From Minisyncoccota bacterium (lineage in GTDB: Bacteria > Patescibacteriota > Minisyncoccia > Phycocordibacterales > UBA9973): a stretch of DNA of 64,000 nucleotides. Made by a program: the position numbers and the translations under genes. This document shows, one piece after another, positions 8,016-31,141 of this stretch. Every line of letters begins with the position of its first letter. Positions within the stretch are counted from its first letter, which is position 1. The notes beneath the pieces were generated by a model. That model was not told the DNA's origin and did no database searches. It worked only from the letters and a program-made list of their open reading frames with translations. The DNA is taken from contig JBAYHW010000005.1 of NCBI GenBank assembly GCA_041665925.1, positions 13,819 to 77,818 on the forward strand, given 5' to 3'.

Positions 8016-9119
8016 ATGAATTATATACACAAATTTTTACCTTCAATAATAGTAATAGTCTTTTCATTTTTAGTTGTTTCGTCTGTCGGGGCAGTCACTA
8101 ACTCACCCAGCCTGGGGATGGCAAAGACATACGCTGTATTAAGCAGTACATACACCAACACTAGTGCTGGAACCGTAATCAATGGGGACGTTGGATTTAC
8201 TACACCACCAGCCGTTGCCCCTTTAGGGACGCATCTAAATTATGGCTGGCTAGCTCCGTATGCAGTGGCTGGGACAGATCAGGCTACAGCTCTTTCTTCT
8301 TTAACTTCGGAAGGTTGCACTTTTAATTTTCCTGGAGGAGCTATAAATTTATCTACAGATACTACACATGGACCGATAGGTGTATATACTCCGGGTGTGT
8401 ATTGTAGTACTGGAGCAATGGATATAGGAGGACCTTTAAGTTTAAATGGGAACGGAACTTATGTTTTTAGAACAGGTGGTGCACTTACTTCTACTGTGGG
8501 AGCTATCGTTGCATTAAATGACGGAGCATCTGCTTGTAACATATTTTGGATTCCCACTGGGGCGACTACGCTTGCCGCAAACACTACATTTTTTGGAAAT
8601 ATTATAGACGATGCGGGAATTACAGTAGGAGCAAATTCTACTATATTTGGAAGGTTGTTAGCTTTTGCTGGCACTGTAACAACAGATACTAATACTATTA
8701 CAGTTCCAACATGTTCTTCTGGCGTTAATGGGACAATAGGCGGTGGAATACCTTCTCCAGTAAATGGAACAATAGGTGGAAATGTCGGTGGAGGTGGAGT
8801 AAATGGAACAATAGGTGGAAATGTCGGTGGAGGTGGAGTAAATGGAACAATAGATGGAACAGTTGGAGGGTTTGTGAGTGGAACTATTGGCGGAATAATT
8901 GATGGAACATCAGGAGGGGGTGGGGGCGGAAGTAGTAGCGGTAGCAGAAGTAGCGGTGGCGGGAGCGTCTTGGGAGCTAGTACTGGTGGCAATTCGCCTG
9001 GACAAGTCTTAGGAGCCTCTACAGAAAATGTTCCCGGTTTTCCTAACACCGGATATGCTCCTGAAATAAGATATGATTTTATTCAAATTTTCACTCAAAT
9101 GGTCTTGGCTCATATTTAG
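8016..9119 (+). CDS. Secreted ice-binding-like (DUF3494) fold protein with tandem Gly-rich repeats and a C-terminal FPNTG sorting-like motif (367 aa)
   Basis: Signal peptide, then YAVLSSTYTNTSAGTVINGDVGFTTPP...IFGRLLAFAGTVT, matching the DUF3494/IBP beta-helix family pattern. This is followed by 39-bp tandem repeats encoding VNGTIGGNVGGGG. The C-terminus ...VPGFPNTGYAPEIRYDFIQIFTQMVLAHI overlaps the downstream sortase gene. Confidence 0.7.
   Translation: MNYIHKFLPSIIVIVFSFLVVSSVGAVTNSPSLGMAKTYAVLSSTYTNTSAGTVINGDVGFTTPPAVAPLGTHLNYGWLAPYAVAGTDQATALSSLTSEGCTFNFPGGAINLSTDTTHGPIGVYTPGVYCSTGAMDIGGPLSLNGNGTYVFRTGGALTSTVGAIVALNDGASACNIFWIPTGATTLAANTTFFGNIIDDAGITVGANSTIFGRLLAFAGTVTTDTNTITVPTCSSGVNGTIGGGIPSPVNGTIGGNVGGGGVNGTIGGNVGGGGVNGTIDGTVGGFVSGTIGGIIDGTSGGGGGGSSSGSRSSGGGSVLGASTGGNSPGQVLGASTENVPGFPNTGYAPEIRYDFIQIFTQMVLAHI
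8761..8856 (+). repeat. Tandem 39-bp repeat (2.5 copies) encoding the VNGTIGGNVGGGG unit inside the IBP-like gene
   Basis: Exact copies at 8761-8799 and 8800-8838, then a partial third copy. Confidence 0.85.
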
Positions 9120-9654
9120 TATTGTTGGAATAATATTTTTCTTAACATTTTTTTTACTTCAAAATTATGATAGAGGAGTAGGGCTTTGGAATGACGAAGG
9201 GCTATCTCAACTTCCAATGCGACTTAAAATTCCATTAATTAATGTTGATGCAGGGGTAGAAAAAGTGGGACTTACCAAAGAAGGAGTAATGGGGGTACCG
9301 AAAGGTCCAGCTGAAGTAGCGTGGTATATGCTCGGCTCAAAACCAGGTGAATTTGGGAGCGCAGTTATTGCTGGTCATTCTGGATATAAAAACAATCAAC
9401 CCGCGGTGTTTGATAATTTATACAAATTAAAAAAAGGAGATAAAATATATGTAGAAGATGATGTTGGAAAAGTTATTACTTTTATTGTTCGAGAAAGTCG
9501 CAGTTATGACTCGAACGCAGATGCCTCGTCTGTCTTTAATTCTTCTGATGGCCTAGCTCACCTAAATTTAATTACTTGCTCTGGATACTGGAATGAAATA
9601 GAAAAAACCCATTCAAGTAGACTTGTAATATTTACCGATAAAGAAGTAGAATAG
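9073..9654 (+). CDS. Sortase family transpeptidase (membrane-anchored)
   Basis: N-terminal TM segment, catalytic His in VIAGHSG, and the TLxTC-type active site NLITCSGYW. Confidence 0.8.
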   Translation: MILFKFSLKWSWLIFSIVGIIFFLTFFLLQNYDRGVGLWNDEGLSQLPMRLKIPLINVDAGVEKVGLTKEGVMGVPKGPAEVAWYMLGSKPGEFGSAVIAGHSGYKNNQPAVFDNLYKLKKGDKIYVEDDVGKVITFIVRESRSYDSNADASSVFNSSDGLAHLNLITCSGYWNEIEKTHSSRLVIFTDKEVE

Positions 9655-9657
9655 GGT

Positions 9658-10413
9658 GTGAAGAAAATTCTTATTTTAAATAAAAAAGAAGGAGAAACGC
9701 CCTTAGAATGTTTGGGGCGTTTTCGTGCTCATAATAAAAAATATAAAGACATAAAAATGACTTATGCAGGACGCCTGGATCCTATGGCTAGCGGGCTCCT
9801 TTTAGTCCTGGTAGGAGATGAAGTAAAAAACAAAGAAAAATATTTAAAATTAGACAAAGAGTATGAATTTGAGGTTCTTTTTGGTTTCTCTACAGATACT
9901 TATGATATTTTAGGCAAAGTACAACATTCTCACATTCTCAAGAATATTGGAATGTTGGAATTAGAGAAAATTATAAAAAATAATTTGAAACATTTTACAG
10001 GAAAATTTGTTCAAAAGTATCCCTTGTATTCTTCAAAGACAGTCGCTGGGAAACAGCTCTGGGAATATGGCCGTGAAGAAAAAGAAGTAGAAATTCCAAC
10101 CAGAGAGGTGAATGTTAGGAAATTGAAATTTATTAAATTACGAAAAATAAATAACAAAAATCTTTTTGTAAATATTGAAAAAAATATTGAAAAAGTCAAA
10201 GGGGATTTTAGGCAAAGTGAAATTTTGAAAATATGGAAGAAAAATTTAAAGATCAGTTACTCTGTAGTATTTATTGGGAATTTTAAAATCAAATGTAGTA
10301 GTGGCACTTATGTGCGGGGGATAGCCAATTCCCTAGGAGAAAAAATGAATGTTCCAGCTTTAGCATATTCAATAAAAAGGACAAAAATTGGAAAATTTGG
10401 TAAGATGTCGTAA
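9658..10413 (+). CDS. truB: tRNA pseudouridine(55) synthase
   Basis: TruB catalytic motif AGRLDPMASGLLLVLVGD. GTG start; the stop overlaps the next ATG. Confidence 0.85.
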   Translation: MKKILILNKKEGETPLECLGRFRAHNKKYKDIKMTYAGRLDPMASGLLLVLVGDEVKNKEKYLKLDKEYEFEVLFGFSTDTYDILGKVQHSHILKNIGMLELEKIIKNNLKHFTGKFVQKYPLYSSKTVAGKQLWEYGREEKEVEIPTREVNVRKLKFIKLRKINNKNLFVNIEKNIEKVKGDFRQSEILKIWKKNLKISYSVVFIGNFKIKCSSGTYVRGIANSLGEKMNVPALAYSIKRTKIGKFGKMS

Positions 10414-11333
10414 TGGGAGCACAAACAATTTTAACAATTTTATTCGGAGTTGTGGTGGTAGGATTTCTGGTAGCGGACCTTGGGTTTTTCAACAGAAAGA
10501 GCCACAAGATTGAATTTAAGCCCGCACTTTATCAATCTATATTTTGGATTGGTATTTCGCTTGTTTTCGGAGCTTTAATTTTTTTCTTTATAGATAAACA
10601 GACGGCTGTTGAGTTTTTTAGCGCATACGTTACGGAAAAGATGCTTTCTGTGGATAATCTTTTCGTTATTATGCTCATATTTAGCTATTTTAAGTTGGAA
10701 GAAAAATATCACCACAAGGCATTATTCTGGGGGATACTTGGAGCCATAGTTTTCCGCGGTATATTCATCGGCGCTGGAGCATACATTATTCACCAATTTT
10801 ACTGGGTGCTGTATGTCTTTGGAGCCATTCTTTTATACACTGGTATAAAATTATTGGCAGATAAAAAAGAAGAGCACATTGATTTTAAAAATAATAAAGT
10901 TATAAAATTTGCCCATAAAATCTTTCCTTTTACTGATACTCACCACGGAGGTAAATTCTTTTTTAGAGAAAATGGAAAATTTTTCTTCACTTCGCTTTTC
11001 ATGGTAGTTATTATGGTAGAAGCGACGGATATTATTTTTGCTGTGGATTCTATCCCAGCAGTCTTTGCTATCTCTCAGAACCTTTTCGTAGTTTTTACTT
11101 CCAACATCTTTGCCATAATGGGCCTGCGAGCACTTTTCTTTTTACTTGAGAATATTTTGCACCGCTTCCACCACCTCCAGAAAGGGCTAGCTGTTATTTT
11201 GATATTTATCGGAGCTAAAATGCTTTCGGGGATATTTGGCCTTCACATATCTTCCTTTGTGTCCTTCGGAGTAATAATGTTTGCACTCGTGGCTTCTATC
11301 GCATTGTCGTTTATCTTTCCTAAAAAGATTTAA
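10413..11333 (+). CDS. TerC family integral membrane protein
   Basis: Multi-TM protein with TerC-family motifs (paired DNLFVI-type regions and conserved acidic residues in TM helices). Confidence 0.8.
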   Translation: MGAQTILTILFGVVVVGFLVADLGFFNRKSHKIEFKPALYQSIFWIGISLVFGALIFFFIDKQTAVEFFSAYVTEKMLSVDNLFVIMLIFSYFKLEEKYHHKALFWGILGAIVFRGIFIGAGAYIIHQFYWVLYVFGAILLYTGIKLLADKKEEHIDFKNNKVIKFAHKIFPFTDTHHGGKFFFRENGKFFFTSLFMVVIMVEATDIIFAVDSIPAVFAISQNLFVVFTSNIFAIMGLRALFFLLENILHRFHHLQKGLAVILIFIGAKMLSGIFGLHISSFVSFGVIMFALVASIALSFIFPKKI

Positions 11334-11348: not shown

Positions 11349-14207
11349 ATGTACCCAATGTCTACCAGTATAAAGTTTGAAGACAAATATGAGCATGAGT
11401 ATAAAAAGCTAAACAAAGCCCAAAGGGAGGCTGTGGACATTATAGATGGCCCAGTCATGGTTGTAGCAGGCCCTGGGACAGGCAAGACTCAAGTACTCGC
11501 TCTCCGCATCGCGCAGATTTTAAAGCAAACTGATACCAAAGGGGACAGCATTCTTTGTTTGACCTTTACGAATTCTGCAGTAGGAGCCATGCGTGAGCGC
11601 TTGGTGCGTTATATAGGTGAGGAGGGGAACAAGGTTAATATTTTTACTTTTCATAGCTTCGGTTTAGAAATTATAAAGAAGTTTTTTAAAGTTTTAGGTT
11701 TGCCGAACCCGCCGACACTTCTAGATGAATCCGAAAATGCTGTATTTTTTGACGAGATTTTAGCGAGTGAAGATTGGAAATTTCTTTCACCACGAGGAGA
11801 TAGAGCTCGATACTTTGAAGATTTAAAATCAATAGCCTCTCTTTTAAAACGAGAAAGAATTACGGTGGAAGATTTTACTCTGGCCGTAGAAGTGGAAATA
11901 AAAACCTTAAATGAGAGTGAAGATAGCATGTCTACCAGAGGAGCTCGCAAGGGGGAGCTCAGGCAGGAAGTGATAAAAGAAATTGAAGGCTTAGAGAAAA
12001 GTATAGAAGTCGCGCGATTTTTGAAAGTCTATGAGTCTCGAAAGACAGAAAAGAATATGATTGACTACGATGATATTCTAGAGAGCTTGGTTCGCATTGT
12101 GGAGACTTCCGATGACGCCAAGGCCCACATTCAGGAACAATATCTTTATGTTTTAGTAGATGAACACCAAGATTCCTCTCGGGTGCAAAATGAATTTCTC
12201 GCGCGCACTTGGGGGGAAGTGGAAGCACCAAATATATTTGTGGTGGGGGATGATCGCCAGCTTATTTACGGATTTGCCGGGGCTTCAATTGATCATTTCG
12301 TAGGGTTCCAGAAAACCTTTCCCGAAGCTAGGCTCGTACCTCTCTTAGAAAATTATCGCTCCACGCAAGTTATCCTTGATGCCGCTCACGCTCTTCTGCC
12401 TAGTGTTTTATCTAAAGAAAAGCTTATTAGTCAAAGTATAGAAACGCACCCTATTAAACTCATAGAAGCTCAGACTCCGCGTGAAGAAATATTTATGGCG
12501 GGGGAGGTGATAAAAAATAAAATTGCAGAAGGGCTTGATCCCAATGATTGTGCCTTACTTGTGCCCAAAAATGCACAAGCTCGTACGGCCCTCGAAATCC
12601 TGCACGAAATTGGGTTGCCTCTAACTCTTCAAGAATCACTTAATCTTTTTGACCAAAAAGAAGCACATGCATTGCTGAGAATACTTAAAATCATTTCTCG
12701 CGAGGATGCCCCGTCGCTTGCACTTTCTTTTCTAGACGAATTATCTGGCATACCACCCCTCGAAGCTCATAAATTCTTAGTACAGTTAAATATGCGTGAG
12801 CTTTCTTTAGATAGTTTATTAAAAGCTCCGAAAACTCTCTGGGGTGGTGGGGCCACAGAGATATGGCTTGGGAAACTTGCTAAATGGCGCAAAGATGCAC
12901 AAGGAAATGAGTTATCCGCACTTCTTAAAATTATTGGTCAGGAAATCTTGGATGAAAAAATTAAAAAGAAAAAGCTTGTACCCATTGAAGATATTGTCAC
13001 TACGTTTTTATCTCTTTTAGAAAAACGACCCGAGGCCTCCTTTGATGAGTTCGTGGCTTACTTGGAGAAGGTGGAAGAATATGGAGACCCTATTTCCCTT
13101 ATTACTGGAGAGAAGGATGGCGTGCGAGTACTCACGATGCATAGAGCTAAAGGGCTGGAATTTGATTTTGTGTGGATTGCCCACATGGACGAGCGCTCGC
13201 TTACTGGAGGACGGAGGTTCAATTTTTCTCTACCGGAGAATATTTTAGAAAAAATAGAAGAGCGAGACATTGATGCCGTCAAGCGCAAGCTTTTCGTGGC
13301 TATCACTCGGGCCAAGCGTTTCTGTACTCTTTCTTATGCATTCTCCTCGCATAAAGGACGAGAGCAAGAACTTACAAAAATTATTGCCGATCTTCCAACT
13401 GAAGTTTTTAAAAAAGAAAATGCAAAAATTATGAGGGGAGAAGAAAAAGAAGAGAAGGATTTTTCTGAGCTTAATAAAATGGTTAAAGATAAATATGCTG
13501 AGCGTTACATATCTGCTTCTTCTCTTAATAACTTCTTCGAATGTTCCCGGAAATGGTATTTCAGAAATTTACTCCAGATTCCAGAGCCCGAGAATGAGAA
13601 TTTGGTTTTTGGTAGTTTAGTGCATGCCGGGATTGACCAAATTATAAAATCTAACAAAATAATCCTTCCAGAGGATAAAAATGTATCCAAGGTTGTAAAG
13701 GCCTGGGCAGAAATACGCTTGTCGGAGCTAGCTCCTGATCGTTTGAGCGAACAGAGTGTATCTCTACGCGACGATAGATTCCCGCATCTTTCCATTTATG
13801 GCAGAATAGATTTGATTGAAAAATTAGAGAACAATGAAGTGCGGGTGACTGATTTTAAAACAGGTGGTGTTCGTAAAAAAAGTGAAATAGAAAAATTAGA
13901 CGACGAAGGGAGGATGAGTAATCACCTGCGTCAGCTTTCAATGTATTCTTATCTTTTAAACAAAAGTCCAAAATGGCAAGCGGAAGTGAAAGAGTCGCGA
14001 CTGGAATTCGTAGAGGCTAAAAATCCTAAAGATATCTTCTACAGTACAGAAATAACAAAAGAACAAATGGAGCTTCTAGTGAAAGACATTGAAGATTATG
14101 ATAAATTTATAAAAGAGGGTGAATGGATAAACAGACCATGCAATTATAATTCGTACGGCAAGAATACCGAGTGCGAATATTGCAAAATGGCAGAGATTTA
14201 CAAATAA
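11349..14207 (+). CDS. UvrD/PcrA-like SF1 helicase fused to a C-terminal PD-(D/E)xK RecB/Cas4-like nuclease domain with a Cys cluster (952 aa)
   Basis: Walker A AGPGTGKTQVL plus UvrD motifs (TFTNSAV, VLVDEHQDS, TMHRAKGLEFD). The C-terminal roughly 250 aa carry the nuclease motifs GRIDLIEK...TDFKTG and QLSMYSYLL, and four Cys residues (FECSRKW ... PCNYNSYGKNTECEYC), as in the AddB/Cas4 iron-sulfur nuclease fold. Confidence 0.8.
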   Translation: MYPMSTSIKFEDKYEHEYKKLNKAQREAVDIIDGPVMVVAGPGTGKTQVLALRIAQILKQTDTKGDSILCLTFTNSAVGAMRERLVRYIGEEGNKVNIFTFHSFGLEIIKKFFKVLGLPNPPTLLDESENAVFFDEILASEDWKFLSPRGDRARYFEDLKSIASLLKRERITVEDFTLAVEVEIKTLNESEDSMSTRGARKGELRQEVIKEIEGLEKSIEVARFLKVYESRKTEKNMIDYDDILESLVRIVETSDDAKAHIQEQYLYVLVDEHQDSSRVQNEFLARTWGEVEAPNIFVVGDDRQLIYGFAGASIDHFVGFQKTFPEARLVPLLENYRSTQVILDAAHALLPSVLSKEKLISQSIETHPIKLIEAQTPREEIFMAGEVIKNKIAEGLDPNDCALLVPKNAQARTALEILHEIGLPLTLQESLNLFDQKEAHALLRILKIISREDAPSLALSFLDELSGIPPLEAHKFLVQLNMRELSLDSLLKAPKTLWGGGATEIWLGKLAKWRKDAQGNELSALLKIIGQEILDEKIKKKKLVPIEDIVTTFLSLLEKRPEASFDEFVAYLEKVEEYGDPISLITGEKDGVRVLTMHRAKGLEFDFVWIAHMDERSLTGGRRFNFSLPENILEKIEERDIDAVKRKLFVAITRAKRFCTLSYAFSSHKGREQELTKIIADLPTEVFKKENAKIMRGEEKEEKDFSELNKMVKDKYAERYISASSLNNFFECSRKWYFRNLLQIPEPENENLVFGSLVHAGIDQIIKSNKIILPEDKNVSKVVKAWAEIRLSELAPDRLSEQSVSLRDDRFPHLSIYGRIDLIEKLENNEVRVTDFKTGGVRKKSEIEKLDDEGRMSNHLRQLSMYSYLLNKSPKWQAEVKESRLEFVEAKNPKDIFYSTEITKEQMELLVKDIEDYDKFIKEGEWINRPCNYNSYGKNTECEYCKMAEIYK

Positions 14208-14332
14208 TTTTTAAAATGATAATATCTAAATATGGTTATTAAGCGACAAGTAAACAGTTCTCCGGTACCTCCATCCACAAATTGGGTGGTTGGTTTTTGC
14301 GCTTAAATTCTCTTAAAAAATAAACGCAGACA

Positions 14333-14360
14333 CGGGCCACTCAAAAGGTGGTTCTTTTTT
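14333..14360 (+). terminator. Intrinsic terminator (GGGCCAC-loop-GTGGTTC followed by TTTTTT)
   Basis: Seen in the sequence downstream of the helicase gene and upstream of proB. Confidence 0.55.
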
Positions 14361-14385: not shown

Positions 14386-15144
14386 ATGCGTCTAGTAATT
14401 AAAATAGGGACACAAGTTATTTCAAGTAGGACTGGGCTTGATACGAGGCAAGTAGGAAATATTATCAATGACATTTCGAAGCTTTTTAAACTGGGTCACG
14501 AAATTATAATCGTGAGTTCTGGGGCGATAGCTGCTGGTTTACCAGAGCTGAAATTCAAGAGCAAGTTAGAGAAAAAAGTTGCTGCTGCTGTGGGTCAGCC
14601 ATTACTTATACAGAGCTACATAAAAGAAGCGAAAAAACATAAAATTACAGTTGGGCAAATCTTGATACTCAGCGACGACTTTACCAATCATCTTCACTTT
14701 AAAAATTTCCTTTTAAATATTGAAGAAATGTTAAAGCATAAAATTTTGCCTATAATCAACGAGAACGACGTTATGAAAAGAGTTGATTTAAGAGTAAATG
14801 ATAATGATGCATTGGGAGCTATGGTTGCAGTCGGGGTGCGTGCTGATAAGTTAATTATTTTAACTAACCAACAGGGGCTTTTTACTAAAAATCCTGATCA
14901 TGACAAAAAGGCTAAATTAATAAAACAGGTTGATATTATTAACTCTAAAATAAAAGCTCTGTGTCTTAATAAGTCTCAGCTGGGAGTCGGCGGAATGCTG
15001 GCTAAGGTTAATGCAGCTGAGTATGCTACAAAAAGGGGGATAGAAACCTTAATCGGGAATGGGAGAAAAAAAGGTATAATTAACGAGGCCACCAGTGAAA
15101 ATTTTTCTGGGACAAGGTTTATTGCTAGACATAAAAATAAATAA
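14386..15144 (+). CDS. proB: Glutamate 5-kinase (short form, no PUA domain)
   Basis: Amino-acid kinase family N-terminus MRLVIKIGTQVISS...IIIVSSGAIAAG. It is followed by proC and proA. Confidence 0.85.
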   Translation: MRLVIKIGTQVISSRTGLDTRQVGNIINDISKLFKLGHEIIIVSSGAIAAGLPELKFKSKLEKKVAAAVGQPLLIQSYIKEAKKHKITVGQILILSDDFTNHLHFKNFLLNIEEMLKHKILPIINENDVMKRVDLRVNDNDALGAMVAVGVRADKLIILTNQQGLFTKNPDHDKKAKLIKQVDIINSKIKALCLNKSQLGVGGMLAKVNAAEYATKRGIETLIGNGRKKGIINEATSENFSGTRFIARHKNK

Positions 15145-15145
15145 T

Positions 15146-15904
15146 ATGAAAACACAAATAACAATTATAGGTTTTGGTACAATGGGGAAAGCTATAGGTA
15201 AGGCATTAGCAAAACATCGAACATTTAGGGTTATCGGCATAGATAAAATAAATTCTAATTCCAAGCTGACAGAGAAAAATATTAAGCAGTCTGATTTTAT
15301 TATTCTCGCAATCAAACCGCAAGATGCCAAAGTAGCTATTGAGAAATATAAGATATTTTTTAACAAAAAAAGTATATTAATTTCTATTATGGCAGGGGTA
15401 TCAATAAAAAATCTTGCTACGTTGTCTGGACACAAGAAAATAATAAGGATGATGCCTAATTTAGGGCTTTCTGTTAATGAAGGGATAGCAGTTTGGCGGG
15501 CATCTGGATTATCTAAGGAAGAAGTAAAAAATGCTAAAAAGTTAATTGATAAAATTTCGGTAAACTTTGAAGTTAAAAACGAAGATACTATAAATAAAAT
15601 AACAGCAATCTCTGGAAGCGGGCCAGCATATTTTTTCCTATTGGCAAATTGTATGCAAGAAGCTTGTACTAAACTTGGTCTTAATAAAAATCAAAGTAAA
15701 CTATTGGTTCAAAAGACATTTTCGGCTTCAGCCTTACTAGGGAAAGAAGGAGCTTACTCTGAACTTATAAATAAAATTGCATCTAAAAAGGGGACGACAG
15801 AAGCTGCACTGGAGATTTTCAAAAAGAATAGAATAGAAGAAATTGTATTTCAGGCGGTTGCTGCGGCATATCATAGAGCAAAAGAATTAAACAATGAACA
15901 ATAA
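15146..15904 (+). CDS. proC: Pyrroline-5-carboxylate reductase
   Basis: Rossmann N-terminus MKTQITIIGFGTMGKAIGKAL and a P5CR C-terminal domain. The ATG at 15146 is preferred over the upstream in-frame start at 15095, which overlaps proB. Confidence 0.85.
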   Translation: MKTQITIIGFGTMGKAIGKALAKHRTFRVIGIDKINSNSKLTEKNIKQSDFIILAIKPQDAKVAIEKYKIFFNKKSILISIMAGVSIKNLATLSGHKKIIRMMPNLGLSVNEGIAVWRASGLSKEEVKNAKKLIDKISVNFEVKNEDTINKITAISGSGPAYFFLLANCMQEACTKLGLNKNQSKLLVQKTFSASALLGKEGAYSELINKIASKKGTTEAALEIFKKNRIEEIVFQAVAAAYHRAKELNNEQ

Positions 15905-17150
15905 AATATTAAAACAATTGAAAAGTGCAAAGAAGGCTTCAAATAATTTCGGACTTCTGCCCCATGCTAAAAGGATTTCAATTTTAAAAAAAATAGTGAT
16001 AGGGTTGCGTAAAAGTAAAAAATTAATAATTCAAGCAAATACTAAAGATTTAAAAAATCTAAGCTTAAATGATCCAATGCGAGACAGATTGCTTTTAAAT
16101 CAGGAAAGGATAGAAGCGATGATGGGGGATATAGAAAATATCGTAAAACTAGAAGATCCTCTAGGGGATGTTTTTGATTGCAGGAAACGCAACGGGCTTA
16201 AAATTTGCCGCAAGAGAGTACCCATTGGAGTGATAGGCGTTATTTATGAATCACGACCAAATGTCACCACTGACGTGGCTGCTATTTGTATTAAATCTGG
16301 GAACGCTGTAGTTCTAAAAGGAGGGAAGGAGGCCAGAGAGAGCTGCCTAGTTCTCTATAAAATTATTAAAAAGGCGCTAGTATCCGCTGGTGTTAATCCT
16401 GAGGCGGTGCAATTTATTGATCCTAAAATCCCAAACGCAGTATTAGATGTTATTTCAGCGAATAATTTAGTTGACGTTATTATTCCTCGTGGGAGTTCAA
16501 ATCTAATAAATTTTATTCGAGAAAATGCAACTATTCCTGTTATTGAAACAGGTGCTGGGGTTTGTCATACCTTTGTGGATGAATCCGCGAAACTTGATTT
16601 ATCTGCTAAAGTTATTTTTAACGCTAAAACTCAACGGCCAAGTGTATGCAATTCTTTAGATACACTGTTAGTTCACACAAAGGTTGCTGGAGTCTTTTTG
16701 CCAATGGTTGCTCGACTTTTAATTCAAAAGAAAGTAGAGATTTTTGCCGATGTCGAGAGTTTCTCATTGTTAAAAAATATTTACCCAGCTAGCCTTTTAA
16801 AAAAAGCTCACACTGGTGATTTTGGACGAGAATTTTTAAGTCAAAAAATGTCTATAAAAATTGTGTCCAGCTTTAATGAAGCGAAAGAACATATAGAAAA
16901 ATATTCCTCTAAGCATTCCGAAGCAATTCTTTCAGAAAATCAAAAAAATTGCCAAAGGTTTTTAGATGAGATTGATGCAAGTGTTGTTTATGTTAATGCC
17001 TCTACTCGTTTTTCAGATGGCGCGGTGTTTGGATTAGGTGGGGAAATAGGAATATCTACATCTAAGCTTCATGCCAGAGGTCCTATGGGCCCAAAAGAAG
17101 TAACTACATATAAATGGGTAGTACAAGGAAAATACACGACGAGAAAATAA
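15894..17150 (+). CDS. proA: Gamma-glutamyl phosphate reductase (glutamate-5-semialdehyde dehydrogenase)
   Basis: Aldehyde dehydrogenase fold with the catalytic Cys region; 418 aa. Completes the proB-proC-proA cluster. Confidence 0.85.
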   Translation: MNNKILKQLKSAKKASNNFGLLPHAKRISILKKIVIGLRKSKKLIIQANTKDLKNLSLNDPMRDRLLLNQERIEAMMGDIENIVKLEDPLGDVFDCRKRNGLKICRKRVPIGVIGVIYESRPNVTTDVAAICIKSGNAVVLKGGKEARESCLVLYKIIKKALVSAGVNPEAVQFIDPKIPNAVLDVISANNLVDVIIPRGSSNLINFIRENATIPVIETGAGVCHTFVDESAKLDLSAKVIFNAKTQRPSVCNSLDTLLVHTKVAGVFLPMVARLLIQKKVEIFADVESFSLLKNIYPASLLKKAHTGDFGREFLSQKMSIKIVSSFNEAKEHIEKYSSKHSEAILSENQKNCQRFLDEIDASVVYVNASTRFSDGAVFGLGGEIGISTSKLHARGPMGPKEVTTYKWVVQGKYTTRK

Positions 17151-25846: not shown

Positions 25847-25868
25847 GTAATTTTTGTTTTTTAACACA

Positions 25869-26801
25869 ATGGCAAATAGGCACCTTTCCAGATCAATAGT
25901 GCTCCAGACGCTTTTTGAGTGGGACTTCTCATCTCAAGATAAGAAAACTAAAAACCTAAATAGCGAAGAAGTACAAGAAACTTTAAAAAGAAATTTAAAA
26001 GAATTCGCTCCTGGTTTTGAGGATGATGTTTTCGTATTTTCTCTCATAGATAAGGTGTTAAAAAAACAAACAGTCATAGATGAGATTATTGGAAAAGCAG
26101 CCCCGGACTGGCCAATAGATAAAATTTCTGTCATTGATAGAAATATTTTAAGAATTGGGCTTACCGAGCTTCTTTTTGGTGATAGAAAAGAAGTGCCTCC
26201 GAAAGTGGCTATAAATGAAGCGATAGAGTTGGCGAAAACTTTTGGCGGAGAGAACTCTGGCAAATTTGTAAACGGCGTCCTCGGTGCTGTGTATAAAGAG
26301 ATAGGGGAGCCGGGTAAAGAGCAAATCAGTAAAAAGAAAAAAACAGACGAACCTGTCGATATAACAAAGTTGCCTATAGATAAAAAGGGAGGGGCTCTGG
26401 TATACGCTGACCATGATGGGAAAATAATGTTTGCCCTAGTGCACGACGTGTTTGGATACTGGACAATTTCCAAAGGAACAATTGAAGACGGAGAAAACGA
26501 AAAAGAGGCTACTATTAGGGAAATAAAAGAAGAGATAGGGCTTGATATTGAGATACAAGAAAAGTTGGGAGAGAATGAGTACGTTGCTTCTCACCCCGAA
26601 AAAGGAAAAAGTTTAAAAAAGGTGGTATATTTTTTAGCTAAAAGTGAATGTAAGGAATTAGAATTAGAAAAGTCTGGAGGCCTAGACGGAGCTCGTTGGT
26701 TTGAGCTTTCAGCTATACCCGAACTTCGAATTTATAATGATATTATCCCATTGATTAGTAAAGCAATTGAAATATTAACCACCGCCAAAGCGGGACAATA
26801 A
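25869..26801 (+). CDS. nusB: NusB antitermination factor fused to a C-terminal Nudix hydrolase domain (about 310 aa)
   Basis: The NusB fold (RHLSRSIVLQTLFEWDF ... ILRIGLTELLF) is followed by the Nudix box GTIEDGENEKEATIREIKEEIGL (Gx5Ex7REUxEExGU). Confidence 0.8.
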   Translation: MANRHLSRSIVLQTLFEWDFSSQDKKTKNLNSEEVQETLKRNLKEFAPGFEDDVFVFSLIDKVLKKQTVIDEIIGKAAPDWPIDKISVIDRNILRIGLTELLFGDRKEVPPKVAINEAIELAKTFGGENSGKFVNGVLGAVYKEIGEPGKEQISKKKKTDEPVDITKLPIDKKGGALVYADHDGKIMFALVHDVFGYWTISKGTIEDGENEKEATIREIKEEIGLDIEIQEKLGENEYVASHPEKGKSLKKVVYFLAKSECKELELEKSGGLDGARWFELSAIPELRIYNDIIPLISKAIEILTTAKAGQ

Positions 26802-27514: not shown

Positions 27515-29671
27515 ATGCGCTTAAAAACACTTCAACTAAATGGTTTTAAATCTTTTGCACAAAAAACTGTTTTAGAGTTTGAGAGTCCTATCGTGTCTAT
27601 CGTGGGGCCGAATGGCTCCGGGAAGTCCAACGTTGTAGAAGCTATCCGTTTCGTCTTGGGGGAGCAATCAATGAAGTCTATGCGCGGTAAGGGGGGCTCT
27701 GACCTTGTTTTTAAGGGTTCGAAGAATCTATCTAGAGGTTCTAAGGCAGCTGTGACTATTTATTTTAATAATACTGATAAAATTTTTAAATTATCAAACG
27801 ATAACGGAGATGATATAAATTTAAATTATGATGTAATTTCGATTTCTCGTGAAGTTTATTCCGATGGGGTCAATAAATATATTTTAAACGGATCCGAAGT
27901 CAGGCTGAAAGACATACACAACTTACTCGCTTCAGTAAACATCGGCTCTTCGGGGCACCACATCATATCTCAAGGAGAAGCAGACAGAATTTTAAACGCT
28001 TCGGCTCGCGATAAAAAAGAAATGGTAGAAGACGCACTCGGGCTTAAGATTTATCAATACAAAATAAAAGAATCCGAAAGAAAACTAGAAAAGACCACAG
28101 AAAATATGAAAGAGGTGACTATGCTCCGAAGGGAGAATGCACCCCACTTGAAATTCCTAGAAAAACAAGTAGAGAAATTTGAAAAGGCTAAGGAAATGCA
28201 AACAAGTCTGGCTAATCTATACCGAGAATACTTAAGCAAAGAAAGCATTTATATAGAAAATGAAAAGGAAAACCTATCACGAGAGAGGAACAAATTGTCG
28301 GAAGAACTGCGAGGTATAAATATAAAAATTTCTGCCACCGAAGATACTAATAAGCAAGAAAATAAAAAGATTGAGGAATTGCGAATAGTGGAGCAGAGGG
28401 TCAACGGAATCCGTGGAGCGAAGGGAGAGCTCGAGCGCAAGCTAGGGAGAATTGAAGGAATATTAGAATCAAGAGAGAATAAAGTAAAAGTCGCCGGAAA
28501 ATGCCCACTCTGTGGTAGTGAGATAAAAGAAGGAGCAGAACAAATAGAGAAAAAGCATAACGAAGAGAAAGAGCTGGAAGAATTGAAAATTTCACAGGCT
28601 AATACTGTGGCCGAGATTAGAAAAATTGAAGGAGAAGAAAAAGAGGGGATTCAAATTATTGAAAATCTCAAACAAGCAATAAATACAGAGATGGAAGCCT
28701 TGCGTGACTTAGAGCGTGAGAAATTCGCCTTTAAAGTAAGACACCAAGAGCTTTCTTCGGCGCTTGAGCTCGTAGTTATCAAAGAGGCGAACCTAAAGAA
28801 CAGAAAAGAAGCCTTCGAAAACGAGATAAAAGAGGGTGGGGCATTAATTGGCTCGGACATTTTTTCATATAAGAATTATACAGTTGAAGAAAAAGTAGAA
28901 CACGAGACTCAAGAAGAATTAAAAAAGAAAATAGAACGTATAAAGATAAAGCTTGAAGATGCAGGCATGGGCAATGGGGCGGAATTGATGAAAGAATTTG
29001 AACAAGTTTCTGAGCGAGATCAATTCTTAGCCAAGGAGCTTGAAGACTTAGAGAAGAGCATAGAATCTTTAGAAAAACTTATTGTAGATCTGAAAGAAAA
29101 GATAGATTTAGAATTTAAAGAAGGGGTCAAGAAAATAAATGTGGAATTTCAAGAATTTTTCTCACTGATGTTCGGCGGGGGGCACGGAGCGCTTTCAATT
29201 GTCGTAGAAAATAAAAAGTCCCGACGCCCTGCGGGGTCGGGATCCCGACCTGATGCGTCGGGAAAATTTGAAGACGAGGAGTTTGAATTTGAAGACGACG
29301 AAGAAATAGTTTTCGAACAGGGGATAGAGATAAATGTGTCCTTGCCTCACAAAAAAGTCAAAGATTTACATGCGTTTTCGGGAGGAGAAAGATCCCTTAC
29401 ATCCATCGCGCTTCTCTTCGCTATGTCTCAAGTCAATCCGCCGCCATTTCTAGTTCTTGATGAGACAGATGCCGCACTCGATGAAGCCAATTCTCGAAAA
29501 TATGGAGATATGCTAGAAAAACTCTCTAAGCAATCTCAACTCATCGTGGTTACTCACAACAGAGAGACGATGTCTCGAGCTGGAGTGCTCTACGGCGTCA
29601 CCATAGGTGGCGACGGTGCTTCCAAACTTCTCTCTGTGAAGTTCGAAGAAGCCACCCAGATTGCTAAATAG
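27515..29671 (+). CDS. smc: Miniaturised SMC-family ATPase (718 aa) with a CxxC zinc-hook-like apex instead of a hinge
   Basis: N-terminal Walker A MRLKTLQLNGFKSFAQKTVLEFESPIVSIVGPNGSGKSNVVEAIRFVLGEQS. C-terminal signature and D-loop FSGGERSLTSIALLFA...FLVLDETDAALDE. Mid-coiled-coil AGKCPLCGSEI. It sits in the conserved rnc-smc position. Confidence 0.8.
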   Translation: MRLKTLQLNGFKSFAQKTVLEFESPIVSIVGPNGSGKSNVVEAIRFVLGEQSMKSMRGKGGSDLVFKGSKNLSRGSKAAVTIYFNNTDKIFKLSNDNGDDINLNYDVISISREVYSDGVNKYILNGSEVRLKDIHNLLASVNIGSSGHHIISQGEADRILNASARDKKEMVEDALGLKIYQYKIKESERKLEKTTENMKEVTMLRRENAPHLKFLEKQVEKFEKAKEMQTSLANLYREYLSKESIYIENEKENLSRERNKLSEELRGINIKISATEDTNKQENKKIEELRIVEQRVNGIRGAKGELERKLGRIEGILESRENKVKVAGKCPLCGSEIKEGAEQIEKKHNEEKELEELKISQANTVAEIRKIEGEEKEGIQIIENLKQAINTEMEALRDLEREKFAFKVRHQELSSALELVVIKEANLKNRKEAFENEIKEGGALIGSDIFSYKNYTVEEKVEHETQEELKKKIERIKIKLEDAGMGNGAELMKEFEQVSERDQFLAKELEDLEKSIESLEKLIVDLKEKIDLEFKEGVKKINVEFQEFFSLMFGGGHGALSIVVENKKSRRPAGSGSRPDASGKFEDEEFEFEDDEEIVFEQGIEINVSLPHKKVKDLHAFSGGERSLTSIALLFAMSQVNPPPFLVLDETDAALDEANSRKYGDMLEKLSKQSQLIVVTHNRETMSRAGVLYGVTIGGDGASKLLSVKFEEATQIAK

Positions 29672-29716
29672 AAATAGAGTGTTAATCTTTACCTTGGGTA
29701 GCAGGAAGGAGAAACG

Positions 29717-29974
29717 ATGCGAAGTCGCCCCTTTGAGGAGACGATCCTCGAGACGATAAGCGAGATGTGCATTCCCCAGGTCGAACTGGTGGCCAATCTG
29801 ATACTTAGGACCACCATCAACAACAACCACGATGAGATTGCCGTCGCCTGGCGGGAGCGATGCCTGGAACTGGGACTCCGCGACCACATGGATGTGGTCG
29901 CGGCGCTCGAGTTTAAAAGGCGAAGTATCCAGCCCGCCTACAACGCTGTTTTCTCTGGCATTTTCGATCAGTAG
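29717..29974 (+). CDS. GC-rich hypothetical protein (85 aa), MRSRPFEETILETISEMCIPQVELVANLILRTT...
   Basis: Strong SD GGAAGGAGA 4 nt upstream of the ATG. Followed by the hairpin AGCCCG...CGGGCT plus a T-rich tract. About 55% GC. No family recognised. Confidence 0.45.
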   Translation: MRSRPFEETILETISEMCIPQVELVANLILRTTINNNHDEIAVAWRERCLELGLRDHMDVVAALEFKRRSIQPAYNAVFSGIFDQ

Positions 29975-30034
29975 TAGCAGTGAGCCCGTGTGAGGAGTCC
30001 GCGTACTATACGCTACCCCGCGGGCTTTCTCATT

Positions 30035-30202
30035 TTATTTCTTCCAATCTTTAACCTGCACGCCACCTTGGATTTTAGTGACCACGAGCTTCTGCCGTTC
30101 TTTCCAGCCGAGTGCTCGCACGACTTCGATCGGCAGAGTCAAATAATATGACCCGCCCGACTGCTGTAGATTTCTAATTTTTGCATCTTTTATTTTTCTC
30201 AT
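30035..30202 (-). CDS. AbrB/MazE/SpoVT-fold (swapped-hairpin) small DNA-binding protein, 55 aa
   Basis: The minus-strand translation MRKIKDAKIRNLQQSGGSYYLTLPIEVVRALGWKERQKLVVTKIQGGVQVKDWKK shows the characteristic pattern: a G-rich turn followed by a LTIPKEIREKLGL-like strand-helix. Not in the ORF track because it is under 60 aa. Confidence 0.6.
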   Translation of the reverse strand: MRKIKDAKIRNLQQSGGSYYLTLPIEVVRALGWKERQKLVVTKIQGGVQVKDWKK

Positions 30203-30276
30203 CCCGTTAGAAATTAAGCTAATAAATAAATCCTGTTAGCTTGACGGAAATCTAAAGATTTCCTATTTCTAACGGG
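30203..30276 (-). repeat. Inverted-repeat cassette, copy 1: CCCGTTAGAAAT...ATTTCTAACGGG, flanked by ATGAG on both sides and containing a 22-aa mini-ORF (30214-30282)
   Basis: 12-bp terminal inverted repeats seen in the sequence. A second copy is at 33062-33126. Confidence 0.7.
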
Positions 30277-30290
30277 ACTCATACATGTAA

Positions 30291-30338
30291 GTATATACCA
30301 ATCCCTGGGGATATCCCTAGGGAAGTCCCTAGGGATTC
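30291..30338. promoter_or_regulatory. Operator-like repeat block: GTATATACCAATCCCTGGGGATATCCCTAGGGAAGTCCCTAGGGATTC, carrying tandem TCCCTAGGGA palindromes. Direct repeat of 31060-31096.
   Basis: It lies in the divergent region between the AbrB-like gene on the minus strand and the two small GC-rich ORFs on the plus strand. Confidence 0.6.
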
Positions 30339-30404
30339 GCAAGAATCCTATATCTGGACAATAGTAATATTTAATGTTAGAAAATACTTGAAGGAGGACT
30401 CGAT

Positions 30405-30611
30405 ATGAATTATCGAGCAAAGATCAAGCGGGCCAGAGCCCGCCGGTACCACGAACGTTGGAAGGCAGCGCGACGCGCTGGCCTTCCCAAGGGCCCCAGC
30501 GGGACCACCAAGTCGAATCTGCTTCGGCCGAGCAAGCCGGTACGTCGGGCACACCAGAAGGAGGGGGACGGGTGGTGCCCCGAATGCTGGTCTTTCATGT
30601 GCCGGGCGTGA
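30405..30611 (+). CDS. GC-rich small basic protein (68 aa), Arg/Lys-rich, with C-terminal CPECWSFMC
   Basis: Strong SD GAAGGAGGAC 5 nt upstream of the ATG. A candidate -35/-10 pair (TGGACA ... TAGAAA) upstream. Confidence 0.45.
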   Translation: MNYRAKIKRARARRYHERWKAARRAGLPKGPSGTTKSNLLRPSKPVRRAHQKEGDGWCPECWSFMCRA

Positions 30612-30635
30612 GCGGCCTGGGGCTGTCAATCAAAA

Positions 30636-31056: not shown

Positions 31057-31059
31057 ATT

Positions 31060-31116: not shown

Positions 31117-31141
31117 TTCTTAGTATATTATATATGATAGA

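What the first reader, a model, noticed from the sequence alone, without database searches (positions are those of the whole stretch)
11349..14207. Single-polypeptide UvrD helicase fused to a Cas4/AddB-type iron-sulfur PD-(D/E)xK nuclease
A complete SF1A helicase core is followed by a roughly 250-aa RecB-family nuclease domain (D...IDLIEK, QxxxY) with four Cys positioned like the Cas4/AddB 4Fe-4S cluster ligands. No partner addB/recC/recD is nearby. This may be a minimalist one-protein end-resection enzyme replacing AddAB/RecBCD in a reduced genome.
Basis: partly seen in the sequence, partly recalled or inferred. Interest (0 to 1): 0.55.

Follow-up and report, generated by a model that had tools for sequence, protein, structure and literature searches.

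The report
UvrD helicase fused to Cas4-like nuclease
This gene from a tiny-genome Patescibacteria bacterium encodes an intact DNA-unwinding motor fused to an iron-sulfur-type DNA-cutting domain; the design was catalogued in 2017 but never tested, and it may be these bacteria's one-protein tool for processing broken DNA ends.

Summary
ORF 11349-14207 (+), 952 aa, has a complete SF1A UvrD/PcrA-like helicase and a C-terminal RecB-family PD-(D/E)xK nuclease with four conserved Cys. Two details need correcting. The (D/E)xK motif is D835-F-K837 ("VTDFKTG"), not "IDLIEK". The Cys spacing is C...C-x10-C-x2-C, not the Cas4/AddB C-x2-C-x5-C.

The source is a Candidatus Paceibacterota (CPR) chromosome. 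The gene is a vertically inherited core gene. It was found in 323 species-representative genomes with conserved housekeeping synteny (pheST, gyrB, ligA, truB). No second helicase or nuclease gene lies in the 64-kb window or within about 10 kb in 80 relatives. The nuclease family showed no degenerate-motor AddB/AdnA-like paralog.

The architecture is not new. Hudaiberdiev, Makarova and Koonin (2017) described "UvrD-Cas4-like" fusions as the largest branch of pfam12705, and their tree includes a Parcubacteria member. I found no biochemical study of any member.

I could not test whether addB/recC/recD or a separate pcrA/uvrD is absent from the rest of the genome.

Verdict: new member of a known, uncharacterised kind. 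Interest is moderate (0.35).

The parts
11349..14207 (+). Whole gene: 952-aa UvrD/PcrA-like helicase fused to a Cas4-like nuclease. The alternative start is ATG 11358 (949 aa, as annotated by NCBI). The stop codon TAA is at 14205-14207.
11400..13343 (+). SF1A helicase core (residues 18-665; domains 1A/1B/2A/2B), closest to PcrA/Rep/UvrD.
   Evidence: Pfam PF00580 and PF13361. PDB PcrA 1pjr E=7.8e-53. Foldseek PcrA 3e-32, UvrD, AddA, AdnB.
11466..11492 (+). Walker A / motif I, AGPGTGKTQ (residues 40-48).
   Evidence: Invariant in 44 and 120 homologs; coordinates.
12153..12179 (+). Motif II, LVDEHQDSS (residues 269-277; Walker B DExQ).
12240..12287 (+). Motif III, VVGDDRQLIYGFAGAS (residues 298-313). 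F309 sits where PcrA, UvrD and AdnB have the base-stacking Trp ('ratchet pawl').
   Evidence: Phe is present in 65 of 65 family members where the motif was found. AdnB with Phe at position 325 keeps 90% of resection velocity (PMC8789073).
13296..13316 (+). Motif VI, VAITRAK (residues 650-656).
13344..13493 (+). Linker between the motor and the nuclease (residues 666-715). It is poorly conserved and has lower model confidence.
   Evidence: pLDDT 57-76 per 10-residue block in the full-length model; conservation profile.
13494..14204 (+). Cas4-like RecB-family PD-(D/E)xK nuclease domain (residues 716-952).
   Evidence: PF12705 E=1.7e-21. AF2 domain model pLDDT 91. Foldseek hits to Cas4, ACE1, AdnA, Exo5, AddB. 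Profile hit to the AdnA nuclease at E=2e-3.
13524..13562 (+). N-terminal Fe-S ligand motif, LNNFFEC732SRKWYF.
   Evidence: C732 is invariant. It aligns with 'DCPLRW' of AdnA and 'YCPRLLW' of Cas4 Pcal_0546.
13800..13865 (+). Catalytic core: G-R-I-D821-L-I-E824 (motif II) and R-V-T-D835-F-K837-T-G (motif III, the true (D/E)xK).
   Evidence: Invariant columns. Aligned with GRLDRLE...VVVDLKTG of AdnA.
13929..13946 (+). QxxxY motif, R-Q862-L-S-M-Y866.
14133..14186 (+). C-terminal Cys triad, R-P-C931-x10-C942-E-Y-C945-K. These are the predicted remaining Fe-S ligands.
   Evidence: Invariant. Across the family the pattern is C-x4..20-C-x2-C.
14271..14354 (+). Two terminator-like hairpins with T-runs (14271-14289 and 14334-14354) in the 179-nt gap before proB. 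The gene therefore ends its transcription unit. It starts only 16 nt after the terC stop codon.

Best explanation
This is the Patescibacteria (Paceibacteria/Parcubacteria) core-genome version of the 'UvrD-Cas4-like' helicase-nuclease.

Shown by sequence and fold:
- An intact SF1A motor of the PcrA/UvrD/Rep type is joined by a linker of about 50 residues to a RecB-family nuclease of the Cas4/AdnA/AddB subtype.
- The nuclease has a complete active site (D821, D835, K837, Q862, Y866).
- It has four conserved Cys in the positions that bind an Fe-S cluster in that subtype.

Inferred mechanism:
- The motor hydrolyses ATP and tracks 3'-to-5' along one strand of a DNA end or gap, unwinding the duplex.
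- The tethered nuclease cuts the single strand that is produced. The likeliest target is the displaced 5'-ended strand, as the Fe-S nucleases of AdnA and AddB do. That would leave a 3' tail for RecA.
- It has no inactive-helicase (Chi-scanning) subunit, so cutting would not depend on Chi.

Inferred role: a housekeeping DNA end-processing enzyme for recombinational repair, working alone or as a homo-oligomer. It may also cover PcrA/UvrD-type duties.
For: Domains and motifs.

Helicase fold and closest relatives: PcrA E=7.8e-53, with AddA and AdnB also matching.

Nuclease fold: closest to Cas4, ACE1, AdnA, Exo5 and AddB. The best sequence-profile hit is the AdnA nuclease, with aligned Cys, His and D...DxK motifs.

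Motor competence: Phe at the motif III pawl position supports 90% of resection velocity in AdnB (PMC8789073).

Core-gene status:
- 323 species-representative Patescibacteria genomes carry the gene.
- Synteny is conserved in 80 loci: pheT within 10 kb in 72, pheS in 75, gyrB in 59, ligA in 38, truB in 39.
- A distant family member also sits beside rpoBC-dnaG-rpoD.
- The broader branch is Parcubacteria, Taylorbacteria and other Patescibacteria.

No partner:
- No paralog in the window.
- No paralog within about 10 kb in 80 relatives.
- Every full-length nuclease-domain relative with an intact N-terminus has an active motor, so there is no AddB/AdnA-like degenerate paralog.

Not mobile or defence-linked here: plasmid relatives are at most 30% identical, PADLOC matches only the generic UvrD helicase region, and there is no CRISPR array.
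Against: - There is no experimental data on any member of the family.
- Whether the genome lacks AddAB/RecBCD/AdnAB, RecJ or a separate PcrA/UvrD could not be tested.
- The helicase core scores higher against PcrA/Rep/UvrD models (259, 239 and 214 bits) than against AddA or RecB (137 and 122 bits). It could therefore be primarily the lineage's PcrA/UvrD.
- Which strand reaches the nuclease is inferred by analogy. In AddA, RecB and AdnB, the nuclease fused to the active motor receives the 3' strand, not the 5' strand.
- Fe-S binding is inferred from conserved Cys whose spacing is non-canonical.
- Hudaiberdiev et al. note that most bacteria with this kind of fusion also have RecB.
Confidence: 0.5

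Rival explanations
1. It is simply the lineage's PcrA/UvrD orthologue, serving nucleotide excision repair with UvrABC, acting as a replication accessory helicase, and removing RecA filaments. The added nuclease would be accessory, for example trimming the excised or displaced strand. Double-strand-break resection would not be its main job.
For: The best NCBIfam scores are to pcrA, rep and uvrD. The best PDB and fold hits are PcrA, UvrD and Rep. JGI and NCBI name it PcrA / ATP-dependent DNA helicase. It is a single-copy core gene in a housekeeping context.
Against: It scores far below the PcrA and UvrD equivalog cutoffs (259 against 911; 202-214 against 965-1144). The C-terminal region that PcrA and UvrD use for partner binding is replaced here by a fully conserved, catalytically intact nuclease. 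Motif III is a family-specific variant, F-A/Q-G-A-S in place of W-R-G-A. I could not test whether a separate PcrA exists in these genomes.
Confidence: 0.28
2. It is an anti-phage or anti-plasmid defence helicase-nuclease, as proposed for UvrD-Cas4 fusions next to Type III R-M or Dcm/Vsr genes. In that role it would degrade invading linear DNA.
For: Hudaiberdiev et al. 2017 link the fusion family to defence contexts. A relative of the nuclease domain, P0148, sits in an island of toxin-antitoxin, AbiEii, Schlafen-like helicase and transposase genes.
Against: Here and in 80 relatives the neighbours are pheST, gyrB, ligA, truB and terC, with no R-M, Dcm or Vsr genes. The gene is conserved across 323 species with stable synteny, which is unlike patchy defence genes. 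PADLOC matches only the generic UvrD motor. GC content is the same as the surroundings.
Confidence: 0.08
3. It is the AddA/AdnB-like active subunit of a two-subunit helicase-nuclease, and its partner (AddB/AdnA/RecC-like) is encoded elsewhere in the genome.
For: The order of motor followed by nuclease is that of AddA, RecB and AdnB. Every characterised bacterial resection machine of this class is heteromeric (established knowledge; AdnAB paper).
Against: addAB, adnAB and recBCD genes are typically in operons (AdnAB: PMC8789073). Here there is no partner within about 10 kb in 81 genomes. None of the closest 68 full-length nuclease-domain relatives has a degenerate motor. The nuclease is of the Fe-S type that normally belongs to the partner subunit, so this chain already combines both halves.
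Confidence: 0.1
4. It processes or degrades imported DNA (competence or nucleotide scavenging), which matters in bacteria that cannot make nucleotides de novo.
For: This rests only on general knowledge that CPR bacteria depend on salvage and often encode DNA-uptake machinery. A pilin-like ORF is present in the window.
Against: No competence genes are linked to it, and nothing in the sequence is specific to this role. The conserved neighbours are translation and replication genes.
Confidence: 0.04

Closest known systems
UvrD-Cas4-like fusion family, the largest branch of pfam12705 (Hudaiberdiev, Shmakov, Wolf, Terns, Makarova, Koonin 2017, BMC Evol Biol 17:232; PMC5704561)
   Same: It is one polypeptide with an N-terminal UvrD-like SF1 3'-5' helicase and a C-terminal Cas4-like PF12705 nuclease. 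It is not associated with CRISPR. Their Cas4 tree already contains a 'Cas4-UvrD Parcubacteria group' leaf.
   Different: The published conserved contexts are Type III R-M and Dcm/Vsr defence loci, and most host genomes also have RecB. This gene sits in a conserved housekeeping block in CPR genomes. I did not test monophyly with the published clade, and no member has been studied biochemically.
AdnAB (mycobacterial heterodimeric motor-nuclease; PDB 6ppu, 7sjr, 9np6)
   Same: It combines a UvrD-like motor with a C-terminal RecB-like nuclease. The motor aligns with AdnB (TM about 0.55). The nuclease is closest in sequence profile to the Fe-S nuclease of AdnA, with aligned Cys, His and D...DxK motifs.
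   Different: AdnAB is an operon-encoded heterodimer. In it, the Fe-S nuclease sits on the subunit with the inactive, motor-like domain and cuts the 5' strand. Here an active motor and the Fe-S-type nuclease are in one chain, and no paralogous partner was found. Identity is low: 14-19% in the fold alignments and a marginal E=2e-3 profile hit for the nuclease.
AddAB (AddA and AddB; PDB 3u44, 4cej) and RecB of RecBCD
   Same: AddA and RecB have an active SF1A motor followed by a C-terminal PD-(D/E)xK nuclease. AddB has a nuclease with a 1+3 Cys Fe-S 'staple'. Both align structurally with this protein.
   Different: Scores are far below the equivalog cutoffs (addA 137 against 708; recB 122 against 696). 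AddA and RecB nucleases have no Fe-S cluster, and AddB has a dead motor that reads Chi. The canonical Cys spacing is C-x2-C-x5-C, against C-x10-C-x2-C here (the canonical spacing is from my own knowledge of AddB, Cas4 and Dna2). This protein is about 250 residues shorter, and no partner gene is present.
PcrA / UvrD / Rep
   Same: These are the best sequence and fold matches for residues 18-665, and all the SF1A motifs are present.
   Different: The score is far below the equivalog cutoffs. Motif III has Phe-Ala in place of Trp-Arg. The C-terminal partner-binding region is replaced by a 237-residue nuclease.
Cas4 (SSO0001, Pcal_0546, type I-C Cas4) and the Cas4-family enzyme ACE1
   Same: These are the top structural neighbours of the nuclease domain (E = 2.6e-7 to 2.4e-5). 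They share the N-terminal Cys helix, the DxK core, the QxxxY motif and a C-terminal Cys triad.
   Different: The scores miss the Cas4 model cutoffs (TIGR00372: 37 against 65; PF01930: E=0.17). There are no cas genes or CRISPR array. The domain is fused to a helicase, and the Cys spacing differs.
Dna2 and the bacterial Dna2-like Bad helicase-nuclease (PMC7430649)
   Same: These are single polypeptides that combine an Fe-S RecB-type nuclease with an SF1 helicase. Pfam Dna2 PF08696 matches residues 721-796 above its cutoff.
   Different: The domain order is reversed (nuclease N-terminal), and the motor is an SF1B 5'-3' type rather than an SF1A 3'-5' type. The domain order and motor class are from my own knowledge of Dna2, not read from the paper; only its abstract was seen.

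Membership tests
SF1A UvrD/PcrA/Rep-like helicases | Pfam UvrD-helicase (PF00580) and UvrD_C (PF13361) score above their gathering cutoffs. | tested here: met
   201.5 bits against 23, and 106 bits against 25.6.
SF1A UvrD/PcrA/Rep-like helicases | All conserved motifs (Q, I, Ia, II, III, IV, V, VI) are intact. | tested here: met
   The motifs are invariant or at least 95% conserved in 120 homologs. Motif III has Phe in place of Trp, a change that is functional in AdnB.
PcrA / UvrD / Rep equivalogs (NCBIfam) | The score reaches the curated equivalog cutoff. | tested here: not met
   pcrA 259 against 911; rep 239 against 951; uvrD 202-214 against 965-1144.
RecB-family PD-(D/E)xK nuclease (PF12705 PDDEXK_1) | The Pfam score is above the gathering cutoff and the model is covered end to end. 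| tested here: met
   77.8 bits against 22; residues 721-949 match model positions 2-244 of 247.
RecB-family PD-(D/E)xK nuclease (PF12705 PDDEXK_1) | The catalytic motifs are present: Asp (motif II), (D/E)xK (motif III) and QxxxY. | tested here: met
   D821, D835-F-K837 and Q862...Y866 are invariant.
RecB-family PD-(D/E)xK nuclease (PF12705 PDDEXK_1) | The protein has the RecB/Cas4 nuclease fold. | tested here: met
   The AF2 domain model has pLDDT 91. Foldseek matches Cas4, ACE1, AdnA, RecE, Exo5, AddB and RecB, with 36 hits at E<=1e-3.
Fe-S 'Cas4-like' subgroup (Cas4, AddB, AdnA, Dna2, Exo5) | Four conserved Cys are present: one near the N-terminus of the domain and three at its C-terminus. 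| tested here: met
   C732, C931, C942 and C945 are invariant. C732 aligns with the Cys of AdnA and of Pcal_0546.
Fe-S 'Cas4-like' subgroup (Cas4, AddB, AdnA, Dna2, Exo5) | The C-terminal Cys spacing is the canonical C-x2-C-x5-C. | tested here: not met
   The spacing here is C-x10-C-x2-C. Family-wide it is C-x4-C-x2-C in 52 of 65 members. The canonical spacing is from my own knowledge of AddB, Cas4 and Dna2.
Fe-S 'Cas4-like' subgroup (Cas4, AddB, AdnA, Dna2, Exo5) | The protein actually binds a 4Fe-4S or 2Fe-2S cluster. | not testable with these tools
   This needs purified protein (UV-vis or EPR spectroscopy).
Cas4 proper (TIGR00372 / PF01930) | The score reaches the family cutoff. | tested here: not met
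   TIGR00372 scores 37.2 against 65. PF01930 gives E=0.17 (12.4 bits against 22.7).
Cas4 proper (TIGR00372 / PF01930) | The gene is encoded with cas1/cas2 or a CRISPR array. | tested here: not met
   No cas genes were found among the annotated window ORFs, and there is no CRISPR-like repeat array.
AddAB / RecBCD / AdnAB resection machines | An active SF1A motor is followed by a C-terminal RecB-type nuclease in one subunit. | tested here: met
AddAB / RecBCD / AdnAB resection machines | The score reaches the AddA or RecB equivalog cutoff. | tested here: not met
   addA_Gpos 137 against 708; recB 122 against 696; H. pylori-type RecB-like 102 against 650.
AddAB / RecBCD / AdnAB resection machines | A partner subunit gene (addB, adnA, or recC and recD) lies adjacent or in the same operon. 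| tested here: not met
   None in the window, none within about 10 kb in 80 relatives, and none beside P0162.
AddAB / RecBCD / AdnAB resection machines | A partner is encoded somewhere else in the genome. | not testable with these tools
UvrD-Cas4-like fusion family (Hudaiberdiev et al. 2017) | A UvrD-like SF1 helicase and a pfam12705 Cas4-like nuclease are fused in one protein. | tested here: met
   family description
UvrD-Cas4-like fusion family (Hudaiberdiev et al. 2017) | The helicase and nuclease fall inside the published monophyletic clade. | not tested
The only evidence is indirect: their tree has a 'Cas4-UvrD Parcubacteria' leaf.
UvrD-Cas4-like fusion family (Hudaiberdiev et al. 2017) | The gene lies in a Type III R-M or Dcm/Vsr defence neighbourhood. 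| tested here: not met
   The neighbourhood here is housekeeping. The paper also lists stand-alone and non-conserved contexts.

The most novel reading that the evidence does not exclude
In Paceibacteria/Parcubacteria this protein is the only double-strand-break end-processing enzyme. It would be a self-sufficient, Chi-independent resection machine in which evolution has joined the two working halves of AddAB/AdnAB in one chain of about 950 residues: the active 3'-5' motor of AddA/AdnB and the Fe-S 5'-strand nuclease of AddB/AdnA. It would act as a monomer or a homodimer, and it might double as the lineage's PcrA/UvrD. That would make it the simplest bacterial resection enzyme known.
Probability: 0.25. 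Interest if true: 0.6.

Novelty: new member of a known kind. Interest (0 to 1): 0.35.

Why it matters
If the one-protein resection idea holds, this would be the smallest known bacterial helicase-nuclease able to prepare DNA ends for RecA. That would make it a tractable model for how a motor and a nuclease are coupled without a Chi-reading subunit. It would also explain how a very large, genome-reduced bacterial radiation repairs breaks.

There is a practical consequence as well. Thousands of these proteins are currently annotated only as 'PcrA' or 'ATP-dependent DNA helicase'. Metabolic and repair reconstructions of CPR genomes therefore probably miscount both UvrD/PcrA and end-resection functions.

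As things stand, this is a well-supported annotation refinement of a family already described computationally, not a discovery.

Tried and rejected
- A single-sequence phmmer search of the nuclease domain against the PDB gave only chance hits to staphylococcal superantigen-like proteins (E about 0.015; the same spurious SSL3/SSL4 hits appear). I discarded these. A 23-sequence profile was needed to reach AdnA and Cas4.
- I could not inspect the AF2 models for Cys-Cys distances or for how the nuclease docks on the motor, because coordinates are not exposed.
- Literature searches for the DNA-repair or RecBCD/AddAB gene content of Patescibacteria found nothing relevant.
- PADLOC gave only generic GajB/UvrD and DRT-helicase matches to the motor. 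I rejected these as evidence of defence membership.
- The plasmid search found only distant relatives (at most 30% identity; best was a Hymenobacter plasmid helicase-nuclease), so I rejected a mobile-element origin.
- I looked for an AddB/AdnA-like degenerate-motor paralog among the 150 best nuclease-domain relatives and found none.
- I could not test whether addB, recC, recD, pcrA or uvrD is absent elsewhere in the genome.

Full report
**1. The observation**

NCBI annotates the same protein from the second ATG at 11358, giving 949 aa, and calls it 'ATP-dependent DNA helicase [Candidatus Paceibacterota bacterium]'. Pfam hits are as follows:
- UvrD-helicase at residues 21-325 (E=2.6e-59).
- UvrD_C (E=3.7e-30).
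- PDDEXK_1 at residues 721-949 (E=1.7e-21; 77.8 bits against a cutoff of 22).
- The Dna2 nuclease/Fe-S N-terminal model PF08696 at residues 721-796, which also passes its cutoff.

The Cas4 models score below their cutoffs (TIGR00372: 37 against 65; PF01930: E=0.17).

In alignments of 120 and 44 homologs, every SF1A helicase motif is invariant or at least 95% conserved. The same holds for the nuclease residues H759, D821, E824, D835, K837, Q862 and Y866, and for Cys732, Cys931, Cys942 and Cys945.

- The (D/E)xK motif is D835-F-K837 in 'RVTDFKTG'. In 'IDLIEK' only D821 and E824 are conserved.
- The Cys layout has the Cas4/AddB topology (1 + 3), but the spacing is C-x198-C-x10-C-x2-C, not C-x2-C-x5-C.

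**2. What the two halves are**

The motor is closest to PcrA, Rep and UvrD in both sequence and fold. PDB 1pjr gives E=7.8e-53, and NCBIfam pcrA, rep and uvrD score 259, 239 and 214 bits. AddA scores 137 and RecB 122. All of these are far below their equivalog cutoffs.

The full-length AF2 model has mean pLDDT 82 and pTM 0.77. It matches PcrA and UvrD over the motor, and AddA, AdnB and RecB over the whole chain.

Motif III reads IYGF309AGAS, where PcrA and AdnB have a Trp 'ratchet pawl'. AdnB with Phe at that position keeps 90% of its resection velocity (PMC8789073). Phe is found in 65 of 65 family members, so the motor looks competent.

A nuclease-only AF2 model has pLDDT 91. Its structural neighbours, by Foldseek E-value, are:
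- Type I-C Cas4 (2.6e-7).
- The Cas4-family enzyme ACE1.
- An E. rectale exonuclease.
- The AdnA nuclease.
- RecE, Exo5, AddB and SSO0001 Cas4.
- More distantly, RecB, MGME1, Dna2 and lambda exonuclease.

A 23-sequence profile finds the AdnA nuclease as the best PDB sequence match. The hit is marginal (E=2e-3), but the C-P-x-x-W, G-S-x-V-H, G-x-x-D and D-x-K-T-G motifs are all aligned. Cas4 Pcal_0546 comes next. The nuclease therefore belongs to the Fe-S 'Cas4-like' wing of the RecB family. Actual cluster binding is an inference.

**3. Organism and context**

The window is a housekeeping stretch of chromosome: ligA, truB, terC, proBCA, pheST, gyrB, thrS, rnc, a short SMC, RNase R, trmD, rpoB (1059 aa), rpoC, dnaG, rpoD, tsf, rpsB, mreBC and tgt. 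The bacterium is a Paceibacterota/Nomurabacteria-type Patescibacterium.

The gene starts 16 nt after terC. It is followed by two terminator-like hairpins before proB. An HMM search of all 387 stop-to-stop ORFs finds no second UvrD-like or PD-(D/E)xK protein in the window. There is no CRISPR array.

**4. Relatives**

A scan of one genome per species with the nuclease-domain alignment found 323 genomes, all labelled Patescibacteria-type apart from a few default or dubious MAG labels. In the 80 loci I fetched:
- No second helicase or nuclease paralog lies within about 10 kb.
- The neighbourhood is conserved: pheS within 10 kb in 75 loci, pheT in 72, gyrB in 59, truB in 39, ligA in 38 and the rhodanese gene in 36.
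- terC (9 loci) and proBCA (4 loci) are local insertions.

An exhaustive profile search over 1.84 billion cluster representatives found 915 clusters at E<=1e-10 and 3,726 at E<=1e-3. Nearly every full-length hit is 970-1040 aa with the nuclease at the C-terminus. Among the 68 full-length hits:
- All 65 with an intact N-terminus have Walker A, and all 68 have motif II.
- None looks like a degenerate-motor AddB/AdnA-type partner.
- The Cys triad is C-x4-C-x2-C in 52 of 65. The x10 spacing marks the window's own subclade.

The distant member P0162 sits beside rpoB-rpoC-dnaG-rpoD. Its branch is named Parcubacteria, Taylorbacteria and Patescibacteria, and some members lie on contigs of about 1 Mb. 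Plasmids hold only relatives of at most 30% identity.

This is therefore a vertically inherited core gene of a large part of the Patescibacteria, and not a mobile or defence-island passenger.

**5. What is already known**

Hudaiberdiev, Shmakov, Wolf, Terns, Makarova and Koonin (2017; PMC5704561) described exactly this architecture. They made the following points:
- A Cas4-like domain fused to a UvrD-like SF1 helicase forms the largest branch of pfam12705.
- The helicase halves are monophyletic.
- The conserved contexts are Type III R-M and Dcm/Vsr loci; otherwise the gene stands alone.
- The nuclease should act like those of RecB and AddB.
- Most host bacteria also have RecB.

Their Cas4 tree contains a 'Cas4-UvrD Parcubacteria group' leaf. 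I found no experimental study of any member. PADLOC recognises only the generic UvrD motor.

**6. Mechanism**

Shown:
- An intact SF1A motor.
- An intact Cas4-like active site.
- Four conserved Cys.
- A single chain.
- No nearby partner gene.
- A housekeeping context.

Inferred:
- The motor translocates 3'-5' with ATP hydrolysis and unwinds the duplex.
- The tethered Fe-S nuclease cleaves the unwound strand.

In AdnAB and AddAB, the Fe-S nuclease belongs to the subunit with the inactive motor, sits at the fork and cuts the 5' strand (AdnAB: PMC8789073; AddAB: from my own knowledge). The nuclease fused to the active motor receives the 3' strand. This protein joins the active motor to the Fe-S type of nuclease, so either routing is conceivable. 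Cutting the 5' strand would directly yield the 3' tail that RecA needs.

With no inactive-helicase domain, Chi-type regulation is not expected.

SF1A helicases often need to dimerise or bind a partner before they unwind DNA (established knowledge), so a homodimer is plausible. One relative, P0148, carries two tandem nuclease domains after the helicase. This hints that two nuclease sites per enzyme can be advantageous.

**7. Verdict**

The architecture and the lack of a nearby partner are right. The role as a replacement for AddAB/RecBCD is plausible but untested, because whole genomes could not be searched for addB, recC, recD or a separate pcrA/uvrD.

The main rival (0.28) is that this is the lineage's PcrA/UvrD with an accessory nuclease. 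The other rivals are less likely:
- Defence role: 0.08.
- Hidden hetero-partner: 0.10.
- DNA scavenging: 0.04.

Novelty: a new member of a known but uncharacterised kind. Interest: 0.35.

Noticed in passing
L082:10001-13975 and L083:10001-13975 (protein P0148, 1324 aa): A relative has a UvrD helicase followed by two tandem Cas4-like nuclease domains. Each domain has its own N-terminal Cys, DYKTG, QxxxY and C-terminal Cys triad. The protein was seen on 45 contigs. It sits in a defence/mobile island with Fic, YafQ/RelB, HicB, AbiEii, a Schlafen-like helicase with GIY-YIG, PDDEXK_4 and an ISL3 transposase.
   Followed up: partly
proteins P0204, P0226, P0217, P0242, P0163 (relatives): A minority of family members have lost the N-terminal Cys (for example 'NNYLKSPWEF' and 'NNYKQSPWQY'), the C-terminal Cys triad, or both. 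The predicted Fe-S cluster is therefore dispensable in some lineages.
   Followed up: no
window 25854-26801 (+): A 315-aa ORF fuses a NusB domain (residues 12-148) to a NUDIX hydrolase domain (residues 200-293). This pairing is unusual for a transcription antitermination factor.
   Followed up: no
window 27515-29671 (+): The SMC protein is only 718 aa. It matches the roughly 1180-position SMC_prok_B model in two stretches and scores 495 bits, below the 567 cutoff. Most of the coiled coil and hinge appears to be missing.
   Followed up: no
window 8016-9654 (+): A 367-aa ice-binding-like, Gly-rich surface protein carries a 39-nt tandem repeat (8759-8859; 2.6 copies, 98% match). It is immediately followed by, and overlaps, a sortase gene (9073-9654), so it is probably a sortase substrate.
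   Followed up: no
window 10413-11333 and 14386-17150 (+): terC and a complete proB-proC-proA proline-biosynthesis cluster flank the helicase-nuclease gene here. They are present near it in only 9 and 4 of 80 related genomes. They look like local insertions into an otherwise conserved truB / helicase / rhodanese / pheST / gyrB block.
   Followed up: partly
window 29700-31140: This stretch of about 1.4 kb has no ORF of 120 aa or more (apart from the antisense ORF 29513-29887 at its edge). Its GC is higher than its surroundings (0.47 for 30001-32000, against 0.32-0.46 in the other 2-kb bins). It contains a palindromic 12-mer, ATCCCTAGGGAT, in 3 copies at 30301-30336. It also has a 55-aa ORF that looks AbrB/MazE-like to me (30035-30202, - strand; that call rests on my own knowledge of the motif). 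There is no Rfam match at E<=0.01.
   Followed up: partly
window 31142-33061 (-): A 639-aa protein fuses a D-Ala-D-Ala carboxypeptidase domain (Peptidase_S11) to a PGA_cap capsule-synthesis domain.
   Followed up: no
window 52295-52382 (-): The tRNA-Thr(TGT) gene at 52295-52370 lies inside the 5' end of the mechanically called 408-aa acyltransferase ORF (GTG start at 52382). The real start of that gene must be further downstream.
   Followed up: no
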